Shown here in pieces: positions 8,398-44,488 of a stretch of DNA of 64,000 nt (its first letter is position 1; each line of letters begins with the position of its first letter). The stretch comes from a virus, in IMG/VR virus record IMGVR_UViG_3300036770_004568, positions 1 through 64,000 of that record; one strand, 5' to 3'. Both the position numbers and the translations under genes were made by a program. Below the pieces are notes generated by a model. It did not search any database and was not told the DNA's origin. It saw only the letters and a program-made list of their open reading frames with translations.

Positions 8398-8479
8398 GGG
8401 GACGTGGCGGAATTGGTAGACGCACTTGGTTTAGGTCCAAGCGGCACAAGTCGTGCAGGTTCAAGTCCTGTCGTCCCCA
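8398..8479 (+). tRNA. tRNA-Leu(TAG)
   Basis: Acceptor GGGGACG/CGTCCCC, anticodon arm CTTGG-TT TAG GT-CCAAG, long variable arm, GGTTCAAGTCC. Confidence 0.95.
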
Positions 8480-8502
8480 CTGGTCACAACACAACACACA
8501 CC

Positions 8503-9352: not shown

Positions 9353-9427
9353 GCGGATGTAGCTCAACGGTAGAGCAAAAGCCTTCCAAGCTTTTGGTTG
9401 CGCGTTCGAATCGCGTCATCCGCTCCA
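9353..9427 (+). tRNA. tRNA-Gly(TCC)
   Basis: GCGGATG/CATCCGC acceptor, AAAGC-CT TCC AA-GCTTT, encoded CCA. Confidence 0.95.
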
Positions 9428-9431
9428 ACCA

Positions 9432-9518
9432 GGAAGGTCAATCCGATTGGCGACGGAAGCGCTCTTGAAAAGCGTCGAGGTGTGAAAGCCCTTGGGAGTT
9501 CGACTCTCCCACCTTCCG
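9432..9518 (+). tRNA. tRNA-Ser(TGA)
   Basis: GGAAGGT/ACCTTCC acceptor, CGCT-CT TGA AA-AGCG, long variable arm, GTTCGACTC. Confidence 0.9.
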
Positions 9519-9558: not shown

Positions 9559-9825
9559 ATGTTCTCAGGATATTCCAGTCCATTCTCACGCCCCCTATTC
9601 TCTAGCTCCCCGTTCCAGCGGCCTCCAGTCGCCTATGTCAGTCCGCCAACGAACCAACACCAGGGCTACGTGAGCGCACCGACCAACCAGAGTCGTGGTT
9701 ACATCAGTGCTCCTGTGAACCAGCAACACGGCAGCATTGGCGGTCTCTCACGGTTCTCAGAGAAGCTCAACAACCGTGGTGAAAGCAAGCTAGCTGGTAA
9801 ATACATGAGCCGGTGGAAGCGATAA
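9559..9825 (+). CDS. low-complexity protein with three YxSxPxNQ repeats
   Basis: YVSPPTNQ / YVSAPTNQ / YISAPVNQ; TAGAAT 23 nt upstream. Confidence 0.6.
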   Translation: MFSGYSSPFSRPLFSSSPFQRPPVAYVSPPTNQHQGYVSAPTNQSRGYISAPVNQQHGSIGGLSRFSEKLNNRGESKLAGKYMSRWKR

Positions 9826-12706: not shown

Positions 12707-14000
<1,294 letters not shown>

Positions 14001-40666: not shown

Positions 40667-41500
40667 GTGTAGTGTGGTAGCTTGGTAAAGGCCTATCGAA
40701 TGAAAAAGTTTTCCACAGGTTTATGGCTTGTCTCAGTGAGACTCGGTGAGATTAGGGGCTCTAAGTCAAACTCATAACGAGTATGAGTTGGGAATGGTAG
40801 CAATGTGATACAAAAATAAGGGTGAGAAAACGAAGGACTTTGGAAAGGCGCTACATTGGTACGTGTAGTCAGCTGCGTAGTAGTGCGTAGAAATGGGGTA
40901 ATTATGGTAGCAACGGTAACAAAGTGGTACTGAATTAATCAAAGTTGTTGTTCGTCTTGGATTGATAAGTACAGCTTGTGGATGTTACGTGAGACCGAAA
41001 AACGGTATCACTGCGATACGGAAAAGGCCTCGGACCAGGGGTGTTTTGGTATCGCATTGATACAGAGCTGGGACGAGGAGTTTACAGTCTCAGATGAGAC
41101 TCATAGTGGTAACGGATAAAAACGACAAAAATCGACTGAACGAGTGATTTCATTTGGTCTACCTAAAATATGGCAAAGTGTTCTTTCGCATGCGTGGTGG
41201 TGGCCAAGGGGGGTAGGGGGTTCAGGGCGTACCCCGGCAGGAACACTTTGCCACATTTCTGGGGAACTAATTAAAATTCCGTTCCGGTTGTTTTTCGTCG
41301 TTTTTTTTCGCGATGACCCCTGTTTTGGTATAGCTGTGTTACATTCAGGCCCTCAAACCTGTATCAACCACTACAAAAATCACTACAGCACTACACGTAC
41401 TCAGTCGCCGTTGAGTGCATGTACTCGTGTATTTCAGCACTGCTGATGCCTTAGTACTTGTACTCAACACCCTATATTTCTACTTTTCCAAAAGCTTGCT
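40667..41500. other. large palindrome-rich non-coding region (candidate replication origin or packaging/terminus site)
   Basis: Nested inverted repeats centred near 41212, G-rich to C-rich switch, divergent flanking genes. Confidence 0.5.
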
Positions 41501-41528
41501 AGCATTTAGTGACCAGTCACTAGGAGCA

Positions 41529-42176
41529 ATGGCCAGGACACTCAAGGGTGCCGATCATCGCAGGGGGAAGATCGAAGAGTTCTTGACGATGGTCTGTCTT
41601 CCAGACAGGATTGACCGTTTTACCTACAAGGGTTATCCCTGTCCGAAAGGTCACATGCTTCGGCATCGCCACCATCACTGGTGTGTTCAGTGCGTTTCCA
41701 ATATTGTCAACAACAAATGCGGTATGGATGTCAATCTCACTGACATCTCTCATGCATCGTTCTATAGTCACTTTTTTCAGTGCGTTCAACCGCCACGCGG
41801 CTTTGATGAATGCTGGCTGATGTCAGAAGACTTTCTGGCCATTAAAGACCGCAACTATCCACGACTGACGGCACTGACCTATCGCACAGGACTGGCAGGT
41901 GTTAGCAACACCATCTCACTCACAAAGTTTGTCTATAACTACTTCTGGGGTGACGTAGGTGCATTGGTAGTTACTAGGACATGCAAGAACCCTGCCTGTT
42001 GGAATCCACTGCACATGAAGTCATGCTTCAACATGGCCAAGAGTCCAACATCAGTTGATCCTTTGCAGCTCAAGTATGACTCTGTCAAGAACATGCTCAA
42101 TCACATGAAGCCGCGTTCTTTTGAGAGCGAAAAAGTTTTGTCTCCCGATCTTGCTGCTCGTCTTGCTGGACTCTGA
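41529..42176 (+). CDS. Zn-binding His-Cys/HNH_3-like protein, catalytic His absent
   Basis: CPKGH..WCxxC, ECW, FWGDVG..VVTRTCKNPACWNPLH; AGGAG before ATG 41529. Confidence 0.7.
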   Translation: MARTLKGADHRRGKIEEFLTMVCLPDRIDRFTYKGYPCPKGHMLRHRHHHWCVQCVSNIVNNKCGMDVNLTDISHASFYSHFFQCVQPPRGFDECWLMSEDFLAIKDRNYPRLTALTYRTGLAGVSNTISLTKFVYNYFWGDVGALVVTRTCKNPACWNPLHMKSCFNMAKSPTSVDPLQLKYDSVKNMLNHMKPRSFESEKVLSPDLAARLAGL

Positions 42177-42178
42177 TC

Positions 42179-42883
42179 ATGCCACGCGTTAAGTACACGG
42201 ACAATCTGCATCTCTCTACAATTCAGCATCTGCACATTGCAATTCTCAAGCCTGATCTGATTGACGAGTTGTTCTATGTCGGCCAGGTCTGTCCCCTTGG
42301 TCATCGCTACCGCCATAGGCAACTGCACTGGTGTTTGAACTGCGGACTCAAGGCCTATGGCAACCGGCCTCAAGCGGACCTCAACATGGTGGTCAAGGAG
42401 CACCGCACGTACTTCATGAACGTGTTTGCGAACCTCCCCACGGATCAGCCCCTCGATCAATGCTGGGAGCTGCCTGAGGGCGTCCGCAAGCCCGGCAAGA
42501 TGCAGCACTACTCCTATCTGACCTACCGCACCCCTCAGCTTAAGCGGGCCGTCTCTGTGCCCCTACCACGGCTGGTGTATTCCCTGTTCTGGGGCGAGGT
42601 GGGTGCCGTCACGGTTGTCTCGACGTGCAACAACCCGATCTGCTGGAATCCCTTGCATGTACGCAGCCGCTTCAATGTCAAACCCACGCCCAAGGAGCTG
42701 GGGCAAATCATCTTGACCCCTGATCCATGGCGAGTGATGCAGTTTGAGAAACGCCCCATGACCTTGGAGAAGGAACGCTCTCCATCCATTGCGATCATCA
42801 AACCACCCGTGATGAACAAGGAGGTTGAGCCCGGATCACCATTCCGTCCCCTGGAAAGCCAATACATCCCTAAATTAGAATAG
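42179..42883 (+). CDS. tandem paralog of 41529 (His-Cys/HNH_3-like, catalytic His absent)
   Basis: CPLGH..WCxxC, QCW, FWGEVG..VVSTCNNPICWNPLH. Confidence 0.7.
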   Translation: MPRVKYTDNLHLSTIQHLHIAILKPDLIDELFYVGQVCPLGHRYRHRQLHWCLNCGLKAYGNRPQADLNMVVKEHRTYFMNVFANLPTDQPLDQCWELPEGVRKPGKMQHYSYLTYRTPQLKRAVSVPLPRLVYSLFWGEVGAVTVVSTCNNPICWNPLHVRSRFNVKPTPKELGQIILTPDPWRVMQFEKRPMTLEKERSPSIAIIKPPVMNKEVEPGSPFRPLESQYIPKLE

Positions 42884-42903: not shown

Positions 42904-43668
42904 ATGACACAACGTAGCCGCAGTTACCACGATCCCCTGGACCTCGGTCTTTATGATCGAACATCCATTCGCTACATCAAGGGTCGGATTGGTGCTGAGA
43001 ACAAAGGGCAGACGGCATTTCGCTGTACCAATGACGGTGCTTCCAATGCTTTTCAGAACGTCTGGTTCAAGGTGACGATCACGGACCCCGGCTATCTCAT
43101 CTTTCTCAAGGATGACAACAGGGATAAGCGATTTTATTCCGTCAATGTCTATACGGCTGATTCTGAGCGGCGTCAATTGGCCTACCCCATGCTCACCGGT
43201 GATGTCTGTAGGAAGTTCGATAACATGGTAGCTGGCTTCTCATCGGATCTCTACAACATCTCTGATCAACGCCCAGAGTTAAGGGACCGGAACCGCACAT
43301 CCCTATTTCCCTTGCCCAAGGGTTCCTATGTCATCAACATCTCGACCCAGCGCTGGGACATGTTTCGTTATGGCGTCTACATGATTCTGGAGATGCCCAC
43401 GCAGACCGGCTATCTGGAACTGGAAACTGAGACCAACAGCATGCGTGAGTTTGCTTTGCAAGAAGCCACAACCCAAAATGTTCCAAAGTTCTTCTTGCTT
43501 GAGGATGCTGTGGTGGGTGTTCTGCAGCCGGTGCGGGAGCGCAGTGACCATGACGAGCGGGAATTGCGTGGTGCTTGGCGCGAGTCGTTTAAGGATGTGC
43601 CTTTCCCGAAGGAGATTCAAGATTACATTCGTGCCACCCAAGTTCCCGCTTCAGCTTGTTTCAACTGA
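42904..43668 (+). CDS. hypothetical protein
   Basis: 254-aa ORF; TAGAAT 22 nt upstream. Confidence 0.75.
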   Translation: MTQRSRSYHDPLDLGLYDRTSIRYIKGRIGAENKGQTAFRCTNDGASNAFQNVWFKVTITDPGYLIFLKDDNRDKRFYSVNVYTADSERRQLAYPMLTGDVCRKFDNMVAGFSSDLYNISDQRPELRDRNRTSLFPLPKGSYVINISTQRWDMFRYGVYMILEMPTQTGYLELETETNSMREFALQEATTQNVPKFFLLEDAVVGVLQPVRERSDHDERELRGAWRESFKDVPFPKEIQDYIRATQVPASACFN

Positions 43669-43690
43669 TTGACCATTGCTATACTTGATA

Positions 43691-43772
43691 AGCGGAGTGG
43701 AGAAGTAGGATCTCGGGGACAACTAGATCACATCGGTCCCAGTCGCTGGTGCAAATCCAGCCTCCGCGTCCA
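43691..43772 (+). ncRNA. tRNA-like RNA with 15-nt anticodon loop
   Basis: AGCGGAG/CTCCGCG acceptor (1:72 mismatch), GAGA/TCTC D stem, GGGAC/GTCCC stem with loop AACTAGATCACATCG, GCTGG-TGCAAAT-CCAGC T arm, T-CCA end. Confidence 0.8.
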
Positions 43773-43777
43773 ATCAA

Positions 43778-43849
43778 CCAGATGTAGGTCAGCGGTAGAC
43801 GGCTTGCTTTGGGAGCAAGAGGACGTTGGTTCGATCCCAACCATCTGGA
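43778..43849 (+). tRNA. tRNA-Pro(TGG)
   Basis: CCAGATG/CATCTGG, CTTGC-TT TGG GA-GCAAG, GGTTCGATCCC. Confidence 0.92.
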
Positions 43850-43868
43850 TTCGATAGACTTTAGGGAT

Positions 43869-43941
43869 GCCGGATTAGCTCAGTGGTAGCAGCGCTACTC
43901 TTGTAAAGTAGATGTCATCGGTTCGAATCCGATATCCGGCT
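43869..43941 (+). tRNA. tRNA-Thr(TGT)
   Basis: GCCGGAT/ATCCGGC, CTACT-CT TGT AA-AGTAG, GGTTCGAATCC. Confidence 0.95.
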
Positions 43942-43963
43942 TGCAGCTCCAATACATGCTTAC

Positions 43964-44488
43964 ATGTCCCTCTACCTAACATCCGATCTGCATTTTGGTC
44001 ACAGCAAGGTCCTGGAGTTCACTGGACCGGATGGTCAGCGCATCCGTCCGTTTGCATCGGTAGAGGAGATGCATGAGGTGATCATCGAGAACTACAACAA
44101 GGTGGTTAAACCCCAAGACACGTGTTACATCTTGGGTGATGTCGCCATTCCCAGATCTGGTCTTCAGCAGCTTGCAAGACTCAATGGTCGCAAGATTCTG
44201 ATCCACGGCAATCACGACACCTACAAGACACAAGATTATCTCAAGTACTTTGATCAGATTCGTGGTGTCGGCTTTAAAGATCGCATTTTCTTCACTCATA
44301 TCCCTGTGCACCCTGACACGTTCAGGGGCGGATCCATTCGTGGCAATGTGCACGGCCACTTGCACATCCATCGGGTAATAGATGGGGATGTCCTCGATCC
44401 ACGCTATTTCAGCGTGTGTCTGGAGGTGAATGACTTTACGCCCGTGTCATGGGATGTGGTCCGCCAGCACTTTGGCTTGGATGAGTAG
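43964..44488 (+). CDS. calcineurin-like metallophosphoesterase
   Basis: SDLHFGH, LGDV, GNHD, THIP, HGHLH. Confidence 0.92.
   Translation: MSLYLTSDLHFGHSKVLEFTGPDGQRIRPFASVEEMHEVIIENYNKVVKPQDTCYILGDVAIPRSGLQQLARLNGRKILIHGNHDTYKTQDYLKYFDQIRGVGFKDRIFFTHIPVHPDTFRGGSIRGNVHGHLHIHRVIDGDVLDPRYFSVCLEVNDFTPVSWDVVRQHFGLDE

What the first reader, a model, noticed from the sequence alone, without database searches (positions are those of the whole stretch)
43680..43772. tRNA-like RNA with intact body and CCA but a 15-nt anticodon loop
Seen: all four stems pair, CCA is encoded, and its own TATACT lies 5 nt upstream so transcription would begin at about position 1. It has an initiator-like 1:72 mismatch, a TGCAAAT T-loop and loop AACTAGATCACATCG (internal GAT/ATC pairing; no U33-type 7-nt loop). 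Preserved stems argue against simple decay. Inference: non-decoding tRNA mimic (decoy for anticodon nucleases or synthetases, ribosome modulator) or a substrate for unusual processing; a phosphoesterase lies nearby.
Basis: partly seen in the sequence, partly recalled or inferred. Interest (0 to 1): 0.72.

Follow-up and report, generated by a model that had tools for sequence, protein, structure and literature searches.

The report
Cyanophage initiator-tRNA relative with giant loop
A cyanophage carries a well-kept relative of the initiator methionine tRNA whose anticodon loop has grown from 7 to 15 bases, so it most likely works as a tRNA look-alike and not as an ordinary decoder, though what it does is untested.

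Summary
Window 43691-43772 (+) folds into a four-arm cloverleaf with encoded CCA, a 15-nt anticodon loop, a TGCAAAT T-loop, an A1/G72 mismatch and TATACT 5 nt upstream.

ARAGORN and the Rfam tRNA model both miss it. A covariance model built from 79 phage initiator-type tRNA-Met genes, with this element left out, hits it full length at 60.9 bits, E 2e-18.

The odd T-loop is a family trait. G55 goes with A at the G18 position in 20 of 79 members, and U55 with G18 in the other 59.

It is neither an assembly error nor a fresh pseudogene. Contigs covering all of it in 4 of 4 runs laid (2 studies) match it exactly, while flanks differ.

The one syntenic relative found (L003) has a 17-nt loop sharing TAGAT and ACAT. 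All 8 stem substitutions form 4 compensatory pairs, and the 18/55 pair is swapped in step.

Best reading: a selected, L-shaped, CCA-bearing initiator-tRNA derivative that no longer decodes normally. Decoy and odd-decoder readings both remain open. No expression data exist.

This scan noted phage tRNA mimics with enlarged loops before on other DNA; I did not check those notes.

The parts
43677..43685 (+). Extended -10-like box TGCTATACT, 5 nt before position 1 of the RNA. It is the likely promoter of the operon: element, tRNA-Pro, tRNA-Thr.
   Evidence: Read. L003 has TGCTAAACT at the same 5-nt distance. Strain variants differ up to 43675 and are identical from 43676 on. The sigma-70 scan calls no -35/-10 pair, so promoter function is inferred.
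43691..43772 (+). The 82-nt initiator-tRNA-derived RNA gene (cloverleaf, T73, encoded CCA).
   Evidence: Cloverleaf fold. Family model R1: 60.9 bits, E 2.4e-18, full length. Identical in the contigs covering it in 4 of 4 runs laid. Syntenic ortholog at L003:3771-3856.
43700..43714 (+). D arm: stem GAGA/TCTC (A11:U24) and loop AGTAGGA, with A at the position aligned with G18.
   Evidence: In the family, A at this column always goes with G55 (20 of 79) and G with U55 (59 of 79).
43716..43740 (+). Anticodon arm: 5-bp stem GGGAC/GTCCC closing the 15-nt loop 43721-43735.
   Evidence: L003 has stem GCAGC/GCTGC (3 compensatory pairs) and a 17-nt loop sharing TAGAT and ACAT.
43745..43761 (+). T arm: stem GCTGG/CCAGC and loop TGCAAAT (G at position 55).
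   Evidence: There is one compensatory stem pair against L003. The T-loop variant recurs in the family.
43769..43772 (+). Discriminator T73 and encoded CCA.
   Evidence: TCCA is also present in L003 and L005. The neighbouring tRNA-Pro and tRNA-Thr do not encode CCA.
43778..43849 (+). tRNA-Pro(UGG), next gene of the cluster.
   Evidence: ARAGORN; Rfam 61.8 bits. Same order in L003.
43869..43941 (+). tRNA-Thr(UGU), third gene of the cluster.
   Evidence: ARAGORN; Rfam 64.8 bits. Same order in L003.
43964..44488 (+). Calcineurin-like phosphoesterase, a syntenic neighbour with no shown link to the RNA.
   Evidence: PF00149 E 1.2e-4; phrog_547 E 2.4e-47. 66% identical ortholog in L003. Closest solved structure is 1xm7, a hypothetical protein.
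42904..43668 (+). 254-aa protein of no known family; the upstream syntenic anchor used to find relatives.
   Evidence: No Pfam, PHROG or NCBIfam hit. 9 homologs at 37-69% identity. Homologous ORF at L003:3001-3750.

Best explanation
The element is a gene for a small stable RNA descended from a phage-borne initiator-type tRNA-Met(CAU).

An insertion of about 8-10 nt in the anticodon loop arose before the window phage and the L003 phage diverged. It turned the 7-nt loop into a 15-17-nt loop.

Since then selection has kept these features:
- the four helices
- the D-loop/T-loop elbow contact
- the unpaired 1:72 position
- T73 and the encoded CCA
- part of the loop sequence (TAGAT...ACAT)

The RNA is probably transcribed from a -10 box that places the start at or next to position 1. 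Its 3' end would be freed when RNase P cuts in front of tRNA-Pro.

Shown: family membership, structural conservation, and identity of the covering contigs in the 4 runs laid.

Inferred: it folds as an L-shaped, CCA-ended tRNA look-alike that cannot decode in the normal way. It would act by occupying a protein that recognises the initiator-tRNA body. The most plausible candidate is a host tRNase aimed at the initiator's anticodon arm (VapC-type); a synthetase, the formylase or an initiation factor are alternatives.
For: Family membership:
- Model R1, built from 79 unique canonical family members without this element, gives 60.9 bits, E 2.4e-18, full length. The window's true tRNA-Thr scores 48.6 and tRNA-Pro 40.3.

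Selection on structure:
- Against L003 the 8 stem substitutions form 4 compensatory pairs (3 in the anticodon stem, 1 in the T stem).
- The acceptor and D stems are identical.
- The tertiary 18/55 pair is A/G in the window and G/U in L003. These are the only two combinations seen in the family: 20 and 59 of 79, none mixed.
- On a model-fitted alignment of 9 rows, one of them an unrelated tRNA, 98.9% of cells pair. 12 of 20 pairs change on both sides, and 0 of 500 shuffles reach this.

Loop enlargement is ancestral and kept:
- L003 has the same gene order (254-aa ORF, element, Pro, Thr, phosphoesterase, Dps-like) and a 17-nt loop sharing TAGAT and ACAT in the same order.
- The spacers between the genes cannot be aligned.

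Population data:
- In 4 of 4 runs laid (2 studies) a contig covering all of 43691-43772 is identical to the window there.
- In X5 the upstream gene piece has 33 differences over 43442-43668. The downstream piece has 22 differences and 7 gaps over 43754-44100, starting with a 3-nt deletion right after CCA.
- In X1 the 6 differences all lie at 43665-43675.

Context and precedent:
- CCA is encoded here but not in the adjacent tRNA genes.
- VapC toxins that cut initiator tRNA, and phage tRNAs with loop changes proposed to evade tRNases, are described in PMC10264068. I saw passages only.
Against: - Only two lineages carry this loop, so the loop motif rests on one comparison.
- There are no expression, end-mapping or charging data.
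- No canonical tRNA-Met was found in the 82.6-kb record. If the phage needs an initiator tRNA, this may be its working copy. The record is only 47% complete.
- Both loops keep CAT, and both also hold a canonical-looking 7-mer (U, then CAC or UAC, then A). This would fit some decoding role.
- Other enlarged-loop members of the family look like decaying copies. In L010, L095 and L122 the loop is 12 nt and the anticodon stem has 1-2 mismatches. L122 also has a canonical copy 0.9 kb away.
- No nuclease, toxin or partner protein has been tied to the element.
- The fold energy alone is not better than shuffles.
Confidence: 0.5

Rival explanations
1. It is still a working translation adaptor. Either it is a Met initiator whose CAU is presented from an oversized loop, or after an unknown trimming step. 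Or it is an initiator body re-aimed at GUG/GUA starts through the embedded 7-mer: U33, CAC (window) or UAC (L003), A37.
For: - CAT is kept in both loops. The 7-mers ATCACAT and TTTACAT have U33 and A37 and synonymous Val anticodons.
- The acceptor end, CCA and elbow are all conserved.
- No other tRNA-Met is in the record.
- ARAGORN in intron mode at a threshold lowered to 70% calls it tRNA-Met(cat) with an 8-nt insert.
- Recalled, not from a call: anticodon-switch experiments on tRNA-fMet and tRNA-Val, and initiation with anticodon-mutant initiators.
Against: - No 5-bp stem closes either 7-mer; the only stable stem closes 15-17 nt.
- Only frameshift-suppressor-type enlarged loops turned up in searches, and those noted have 8-nt loops.
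- No bacterial protein-splicing route for an 8-10-nt insert is known to me (recalled). No RNA ligase or RtcB is in the record.
- The three G:C pairs of initiator anticodon stems are absent.
- A crude start-codon count shows no GTG excess: 12 GTG of 72 ORFs of 150 aa or more, each with an in-frame ATG downstream.
Confidence: 0.2
2. It is a disabled tRNA gene kept for a side reason. As the first, promoter-proximal structure of the tRNA operon it may stabilise the transcript or guide RNase P and 3' processing of tRNA-Pro. Otherwise it has no function of its own.
For: - It sits directly behind the only -10-like box of the cluster and 5 nt before tRNA-Pro.
- The family shows other insertions that look like damage: a 12-nt loop with stem mismatches in L010, L095 and L122, and a 9-nt loop in L072.
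Against: - A mere leader hairpin would not need the coordinated 18/55 swap, the kept 1:72 mismatch, T73-CCA or the shared loop motif.
- The spacer to tRNA-Pro is 5 nt in the window and 27 nt in L003, so the geometry is not kept.
- The contigs covering the whole 82 nt, loop included, are identical in the 4 runs laid, while tRNA-Thr and the spacers vary.
Confidence: 0.2
3. The meaning lies in the DNA. The insertion is a scar of a mobile element (intron or homing-nuclease gene), or it makes the gene immune to a homing nuclease that cuts the canonical initiator-tRNA gene.
For: - Two His-Cys/HNH-like nuclease ORFs lie just upstream: 41415-42176 and 42179-42883, weak phrog_1872 hits.
- 13 of the 15 loop nt recur on the opposite strand inside an HNH-type ORF at 68923-68935 of the record. 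0 of 200 shuffled loops gave a match of 13 or more.
- L005 has an HNH-type ORF inside its tRNA array.
Against: - This does not explain the RNA-level compensatory changes made after the insertion.
- L003's loop does not keep the 13-mer.
- One 13-nt match among several things tried may be chance.
Confidence: 0.07
4. It is an assembly or sequencing artefact, or a very recent pseudogene.
For: None beyond the oddity itself.
Against: - Identical sequence in independent contigs from 4 runs and 2 studies.
- An enlarged loop in a relative whose neighbouring protein is only 52% identical.
Confidence: 0.02

Closest known systems
Phage-encoded initiator-type tRNA-Met(CAU) genes. At least 114 IMG/VR contigs carry the same D arm. 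Cultured look-alikes are annotated tRNA-Met in, for example, Pseudomonas phage D3, Rhizobium phage RHph_TM3_3_3 and Streptomyces phage Wakanda.
   Same: - Acceptor stem, the U8-G9 linker, the D stem GAGA/TCTC with A11:U24, and the unpaired 1:72.
- The T-loop/D-loop variant pair and frequent encoded CCA.
- Scores 60.9 bits on the family model.
   Different: - The loop is 15 nt instead of the 7-nt CTCATAA type. All 79 model members have CAT in a 7-nt loop.
- The variable loop is 4 nt, not 5.
- T73 occurs in 7 of 79 members; A73 in 68 of 79.
Bacterial initiator tRNA-fMet (identity rules recalled from the literature, not from a call).
   Same: No pair at 1:72; G2:C71 and C3:G70; A11:U24; CAT present in the loop.
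   Different: - No run of three G:C pairs at the bottom of the anticodon stem (G:C, A:U, C:G).
- U73 instead of A73, and G55 instead of U55.
- The anticodon is not in a 7-nt loop.
Frameshift-suppressor and four-base-codon tRNAs with 8-9-nt anticodon loops (listings and notes).
   Same: A tRNA body with an enlarged anticodon loop. Phage examples were noted by this scan.
   Different: Those add 1-2 nt and still present an anticodon. This one adds 8-10 nt.
YrlA / bacterial and phage Y RNA-like tRNA mimics (Rfam RF02553, named in an earlier scan note).
   Same: A non-decoding RNA that keeps the acceptor, T and D features of a tRNA.
   Different: - YrlA replaces the anticodon arm by a Ro60-binding stem. 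Here a normal 5-bp anticodon stem is kept.
- No Rfam hit and no TROVE/Ro60 gene in the record.
Phage tRNAs with anticodon-loop point changes proposed to escape host tRNases (PMC10264068; passages seen).
   Same: A phage tRNA gene altered precisely in the anticodon loop. Initiator tRNA is a known VapC target.
   Different: Those keep a 7-nt loop and still decode. Here the loop is doubled in size, so a decoy role would be a different mechanism from a resistant replacement.

Membership tests
Canonical tRNA (Rfam RF00005 / ARAGORN) | Four-arm cloverleaf with a 7-bp acceptor stem and 5-bp anticodon and T stems | tested here: met
   The minimum-free-energy fold gives all four arms. The R1 alignment covers all 20 modelled pairs.
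Canonical tRNA (Rfam RF00005 / ARAGORN) | 7-nt anticodon loop with U33 and a purine at 37 | tested here: not met
   The loop is 15 nt, 43721-43735. The L003 ortholog has 17 nt.
Canonical tRNA (Rfam RF00005 / ARAGORN) | Reaches the detectors' thresholds | tested here: not met
   No ARAGORN call at default settings. No RF00005 hit at gathering score or at E<=10. The L003 ortholog does pass, at 46.5 bits.
Canonical tRNA (Rfam RF00005 / ARAGORN) | T-loop T54-U55-C56 with G18-G19 in the D loop | tested here: not met
   The T-loop is TGCAAAT (G55) and the D loop has A at the G18 column. This is the covarying alternative seen in 20 of 79 family members.
Phage initiator-type tRNA-Met family (alignment A3, model R1) | Significant full-length match to a family model built without the query | tested here: met
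   60.9 bits, E 2.4e-18, model positions 1-75 of 75.
Phage initiator-type tRNA-Met family (alignment A3, model R1) | CAT anticodon in a 7-nt loop (79 of 79 members; CTCATAA in 50 of 79) | tested here: not met
   CAT is present at 43731-43733 but inside a 15-nt loop.
Phage initiator-type tRNA-Met family (alignment A3, model R1) | No standard pair at 1:72 (64 of 79 members) | tested here: met
   A1 opposite G72 in the window and A opposite A in L003. Six A3 rows carry a 1-nt insertion that may shift this count.
Phage initiator-type tRNA-Met family (alignment A3, model R1) | A11:U24 in the D stem | tested here: met
   GAGA/TCTC. This feature was fixed by my search pattern, so 79 of 79 is not independent evidence.
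Bacterial initiator tRNA-fMet (rules recalled) | Three consecutive G:C pairs at 29-31:39-41 | tested here: not met
   The window has G:C, A:U, C:G. Only 13 of 79 family members have GGG/CCC.
Bacterial initiator tRNA-fMet (rules recalled) | Charged by MetRS, formylated, and used in the P site | not testable with these tools
   Needs biochemistry.
Intron-bearing tRNA (group I or bulge-helix-bulge) | A recognisable intron core or a bulge-helix-bulge splice motif in the anticodon arm | tested here: not met
   The extra sequence is only 8-10 nt. Rfam finds the window's one group I intron at 13213-13454, not here. No helix flanks the insert. ARAGORN intron mode calls it only at a lowered threshold.
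YrlA / Y RNA-like tRNA mimic | Ro60-binding stem in place of the anticodon arm, with a Ro60 (TROVE) partner | tested here: not met
   A normal 5-bp anticodon stem. No Rfam hit. No TROVE match in the 82.6-kb record, which is 47% complete.
tmRNA | tRNA-like domain plus a tag reading frame | tested here: not met
   ARAGORN with tmRNA search finds none in the record. The only Rfam permuted-tmRNA hit lies elsewhere, at 15.7 bits against a cut-off of 47.

The most novel reading that the evidence does not exclude
The phage makes an initiator-tRNA double that keeps everything a protein reads on the initiator's body (mismatched 1:72 end, CCA, elbow, anticodon stem) but offers a 15-17-nt loop in place of the anticodon loop.

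One possibility is that it soaks up or blocks a host defence tRNase or toxin that kills infected cells by cutting tRNA-fMet. That would be an RNA decoy against an anticodon nuclease.

The other is that, through the embedded U-(C/U)AC-A 7-mer, it starts phage proteins at GUG with a perfectly matched initiator.

Either would be a way of using a tRNA gene that none of my five paper searches turned up.
Probability: 0.2. Interest if true: 0.85.

Novelty: new variant of a known kind. Interest (0 to 1): 0.55.

Why it matters
Phage tRNA genes are now discussed as counter-measures to host tRNases, but always as working replacements.

This is a tRNA-derived gene that can hardly decode yet is kept under clear structural selection. 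It would show that phages also evolve tRNA-shaped RNAs for other jobs.

It offers a concrete, small, testable object: 82 nt, one ortholog, and a defined ancestral family with normal loops for comparison.

It also shows that standard tRNA finders silently skip such genes. The family alignment exposes a clean A18/G55 alternative to the near-universal G18/U55 elbow contact.

Tried and rejected
More orthologs. Only L003 was found.
- IMG/VR scans with the upstream protein, alone and as alignment A1, found nothing.
- The phosphoesterase alone gave one distant locus.
- An exact 27-nt piece of the element gave nothing.
- The acceptor/D-arm pattern gave only L005, which has a normal loop.
- The D-arm/T-loop pattern restricted to long gaps gave 19 loci, none with a TAGAT-type loop.
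- The JGI metagenome scan with A1 gave L003 and L004. L004 has no tRNA-like gene downstream.
- GTDB genomes gave nothing with A1 or with the pattern.
- The scan's own index had no look-alike.

Phosphoesterase relatives.
- Alignment A2 kept 80 loci. The five whole records I searched are 68-79 kb, so they are a different kind of phage.
- Their tRNA-like genes score only 21-40 bits on R1, apart from one tRNA-Met at 48.3 bits (L166).
- Five whole records held no family member.

RNA repair or splicing idea.
- No PF09414 or PF01139 match in the record.
- The PF09511 search is uninformative because its control rang nowhere.
- The phosphoesterase's nearest solved relative is uncharacterised. Its NCBIfam hit to PdeM is far below cut-off, 23.5 against 150 bits.

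Loop as antisense guide.
- No complementary site beyond chance was found, except the 13-mer inside an HNH-type ORF. That match is sense-to-sense with the mRNA.

GUG-initiator idea. The start-codon count was inconclusive.

Expression. No RNA holder was listed among the 6 runs found, so nothing can be said about transcription, ends or processing.

MAFFT misaligned the anticodon arms (A4), so I used the model-fitted alignment A5 instead.

Literature. Five full-text searches found no description of a phage initiator-type tRNA with such a loop. I saw only listings and abstract starts, plus passages of PMC10264068. Supplements were not opened and may list phage tRNA oddities.

Full report
**What is there**

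The window is the first 64 kb of an 82.6-kb IMG/VR virus record that CheckV rates 47% complete. It carries a group I intron that Rfam finds at 13213-13454.

At 43691-43772 on the + strand the sequence reads as a cloverleaf:
- 7-position acceptor stem whose first position (A) faces G72
- U8-G9
- D stem GAGA/TCTC with loop AGTAGGA
- 5-bp anticodon stem GGGAC/GTCCC closing the 15-nt loop AACTAGATCACATCG (43721-43735)
- 4-nt variable loop
- T stem GCTGG/CCAGC with loop TGCAAAT
- T73 and CCA

TATACT lies at 43680-43685, with TG two bases before it.

RNAfold returns exactly this cloverleaf. The energy is ordinary (z -1.19; 25 of 200 shuffles do as well). ARAGORN at default settings and the Rfam tRNA model do not report it, even at E<=10. 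ARAGORN calls it only when the threshold is lowered to 70-80%.

**What family it belongs to**

A pattern taken from the 5' half found L005, a phage contig with the same 5' half, a normal 7-nt CAT loop, the same kind of T-loop (TGCAATT), C1 opposite A72 and TCCA.

Nearly all are 54-56-nt spans, that is, ordinary-sized tRNAs with loop CTCATAA.

From loci L005-L128 I took the 105 matches of normal span. I collapsed them to 80 unique sequences and dropped L072 because of its 9-nt loop. I then aligned the remaining 79 (A3). Their features:

| Feature | Count among 79 |
|---|---|
| CAT anticodon | 79 |
| Standard pair at 1:72 | 15 |
| A73 | 68 |
| T73 | 7 |
| CCA encoded | 40 |
| GGG/CCC at the foot of the anticodon stem | 13 |

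The D-stem A11:U24 is universal, but my pattern fixed it.

By the mismatched 1:72 and A11:U24 (initiator rules recalled from the literature) these are initiator-type tRNA-Met genes. Canonical members resemble genes annotated tRNA-Met in cultured phages such as Pseudomonas phage D3.

A covariance model from A3 contains neither the window element nor L003. It scores as follows:

| Target | Bits | E-value |
|---|---|---|
| Window element (full length) | 60.9 | 2.4e-18 |
| L003 element | 71.9 | 4e-22 |
| Window tRNA-Thr | 48.6 | 3.9e-14 |
| Window tRNA-Pro | 40.3 | 2.7e-11 |

**The T-loop is not damage**

In A3 the D-loop column aligned with G18 and the second T-loop column vary together without exception. 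G with T occurs in 59 members and A with G in 20. The window has the A/G combination.

**The enlarged loop is old and kept**

The upstream 254-aa protein has 9 homologs. One metagenome contig, L003, could be fetched; its protein is 52% identical.

L003 has the same order of genes: homolog, tRNA-like gene, tRNA-Pro(UGG), tRNA-Thr(UGU), phosphoesterase (66% identical), Dps-like ORF. Its element passes Rfam's tRNA threshold at 46.5 bits. It has a 17-nt loop, TTATAGATTTACATGAC.

Arm by arm against the window:
- The acceptor and D stems are identical.
- The anticodon stem differs at 3 pairs and the T stem at 1 pair. All four are compensatory.
- The 18/55 combination is G/T in L003 against A/G in the window.
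- T73-CCA is kept.
- The loops share TAGAT and ACAT in the same order.

| Segment | Identical columns, window vs L003 |
|---|---|
| Element | 63 of 86 |
| tRNA-Pro | 64 of 72 |
| tRNA-Thr | 61 of 74 |
| Spacers | differ in length and cannot be aligned |

On a model-fitted alignment of 9 rows (A5; one row is an unrelated tRNA of L005) 98.9% of cells pair. 12 of 20 pairs change on both sides, and no shuffle of 500 reaches this. That alignment is fitted to the structure, which favours it.

**Population data**

Six DNA runs from two studies hold the stretch. I laid four of them. In each, a contig covers all of 43691-43772 without a difference: X3 record 9, X4 record 18, X1 record 4 and X5 record 28.

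- In X1 the only 6 differences lie at 43665-43675.
- In X5 the upstream gene piece has 33 differences (43442-43668).
- The X5 pieces reaching into the element differ only at 43669-43675.
- The X5 downstream piece has 22 differences and 7 gaps (43754-44100), beginning with a 3-nt deletion right after CCA.

The block that stays the same therefore runs from the TG of the -10 box to the CCA. Contigs can hide rare variants, so this shows presence of the identical form, not absence of others.

**Expression signals**

The sigma-70 scan finds no -35/-10 pair. TGCTATACT in the window and TGCTAAACT in L003 both end 5 nt before position 1. By the usual spacing this would start transcription at about position 1-2. 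This is inference. The box would serve the whole three-gene cluster.

**What it probably does**

After the insertion, selection kept the helices, the elbow contact, the acceptor end and part of the loop. A plain leader hairpin or a dying gene would not need these. I therefore take it to be a functional, L-shaped, CCA-ended RNA.

Ordinary decoding is unlikely, because no stem closes a 7-nt loop. The best-fitting idea is a mimic of the initiator tRNA that engages a protein reading the initiator's body. VapC-type toxins that cut initiator tRNA, and phage tRNAs proposed to evade tRNases, are on record (PMC10264068, passages seen). Nothing here ties the element to such an enzyme.

Two facts keep a decoding role alive:
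- Both loops keep CAT. Both also contain a 7-mer with U33, CAC or UAC, and A37.
- The record holds no other tRNA-Met, though it is only half a genome.

**What argues for caution**

- There is one ortholog only.
- Other enlarged-loop members of the family look like decay. L010, L095 and L122 have a 12-nt loop with stem mismatches, and L122 has a canonical copy nearby.
- There are no RNA data.

**The phosphoesterase**

It is syntenic but shows no RNA-repair link.

**Novelty**

Five literature searches found no description of such a gene (listings only). Earlier notes of this scan report phage tRNA mimics with enlarged anticodon loops on other DNA. I did not check them.

I rate it a new variant of a known kind (phage tRNA-derived RNA). 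Interest is moderate and would rise sharply if a decoy or a GUG-initiator function were shown.

Noticed in passing
Alignment A3 (79 phage initiator-type tRNA-Met genes from IMG/VR loci L005-L128): There is perfect covariation between the D-loop column aligned with G18 and T-loop position 55. G/T occurs in 59 members, A/G in 20, and none are mixed. This is an A18/G55 alternative to the near-universal G18/U55 elbow contact, and G55 cannot become pseudouridine.
   Followed up: partly
G000:C1:68923-68935 (outside the window), against window 43722-43734: 13 of the 15 loop nucleotides recur exactly on the opposite strand inside a 129-aa HNH-type ORF (68680-69069, minus strand). There they encode L-D-H-I of the nuclease motif. 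0 of 200 shuffled loops gave a match of 13 or more. This may be chance or a scar of a nuclease-gene insertion.
   Followed up: partly
L167:1377-1488, L176:1376-1487, L190:1094-1130, L156:1042-1078, L158:795-831, L164:1137-1173, L149:1136-1172, L159:204-240: In phage contigs with a homologous phosphoesterase (the five whole records searched are 68-79 kb), an abiF RNA motif (Rfam RF03085) lies upstream of that gene. It was found in 8 of the 25 such loci scanned. In L167, L176 and L164 it is directly followed by an aberrant tRNA-like gene with a 7-nt loop of the form C-N-N-A-T-A-G, in which positions 33 and 34 vary.
   Followed up: partly
L052:3951-4033, L096, L121, L123, L124, L127, L128, L013, L031, L125: A group of large phage contigs, mostly from one sample, carries initiator-type tRNA-Met genes with a 6-7-nt insertion inside the 5' strand of the T stem. 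The insertion is conserved across contigs.
   Followed up: no
L122:553-629 and L122:1508-1589; also L010:1473-1554 and L095:309-390: One contig holds a canonical initiator-type tRNA-Met and, 0.9 kb away, a paralog with a 12-nt loop (the canonical 7 nt plus 5 more) and a weakened anticodon stem. The same variant is in two other contigs.
   Followed up: partly
L072:238-313: This family member has a 9-nt loop without CAT and a 4-nt variable loop like the window's. It scores 54.9 bits on R1.
   Followed up: no
L082:5691-5783, L100:11205-11297, L120:305-393, L126:4633-4721: Initiator-type tRNA-Met genes with a long extra arm in the variable region.
   Followed up: no
L005:9120-9808: A tRNA 5'-half-like stretch is followed by an ORF with HNH-type Cys/His motifs and then a tRNA call at 9730-9808. 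This may be a tRNA gene split by a nuclease-bearing intron.
   Followed up: no
window 43556-43652: ARAGORN reports a 'tRNA-???' with a 4-nt anticodon (aagg) inside the 254-aa ORF 42904-43668. Rfam does not support it, so it is probably a false call.
   Followed up: partly
window 8398-8480, 9353-9427, 9432-9518, 43778-43849, 43869-43941: All five regular tRNA genes of the record have T at the wobble position and read four-codon boxes: Leu-TAG, Gly-TCC, Ser-TGA, Pro-TGG, Thr-TGT.
   Followed up: no
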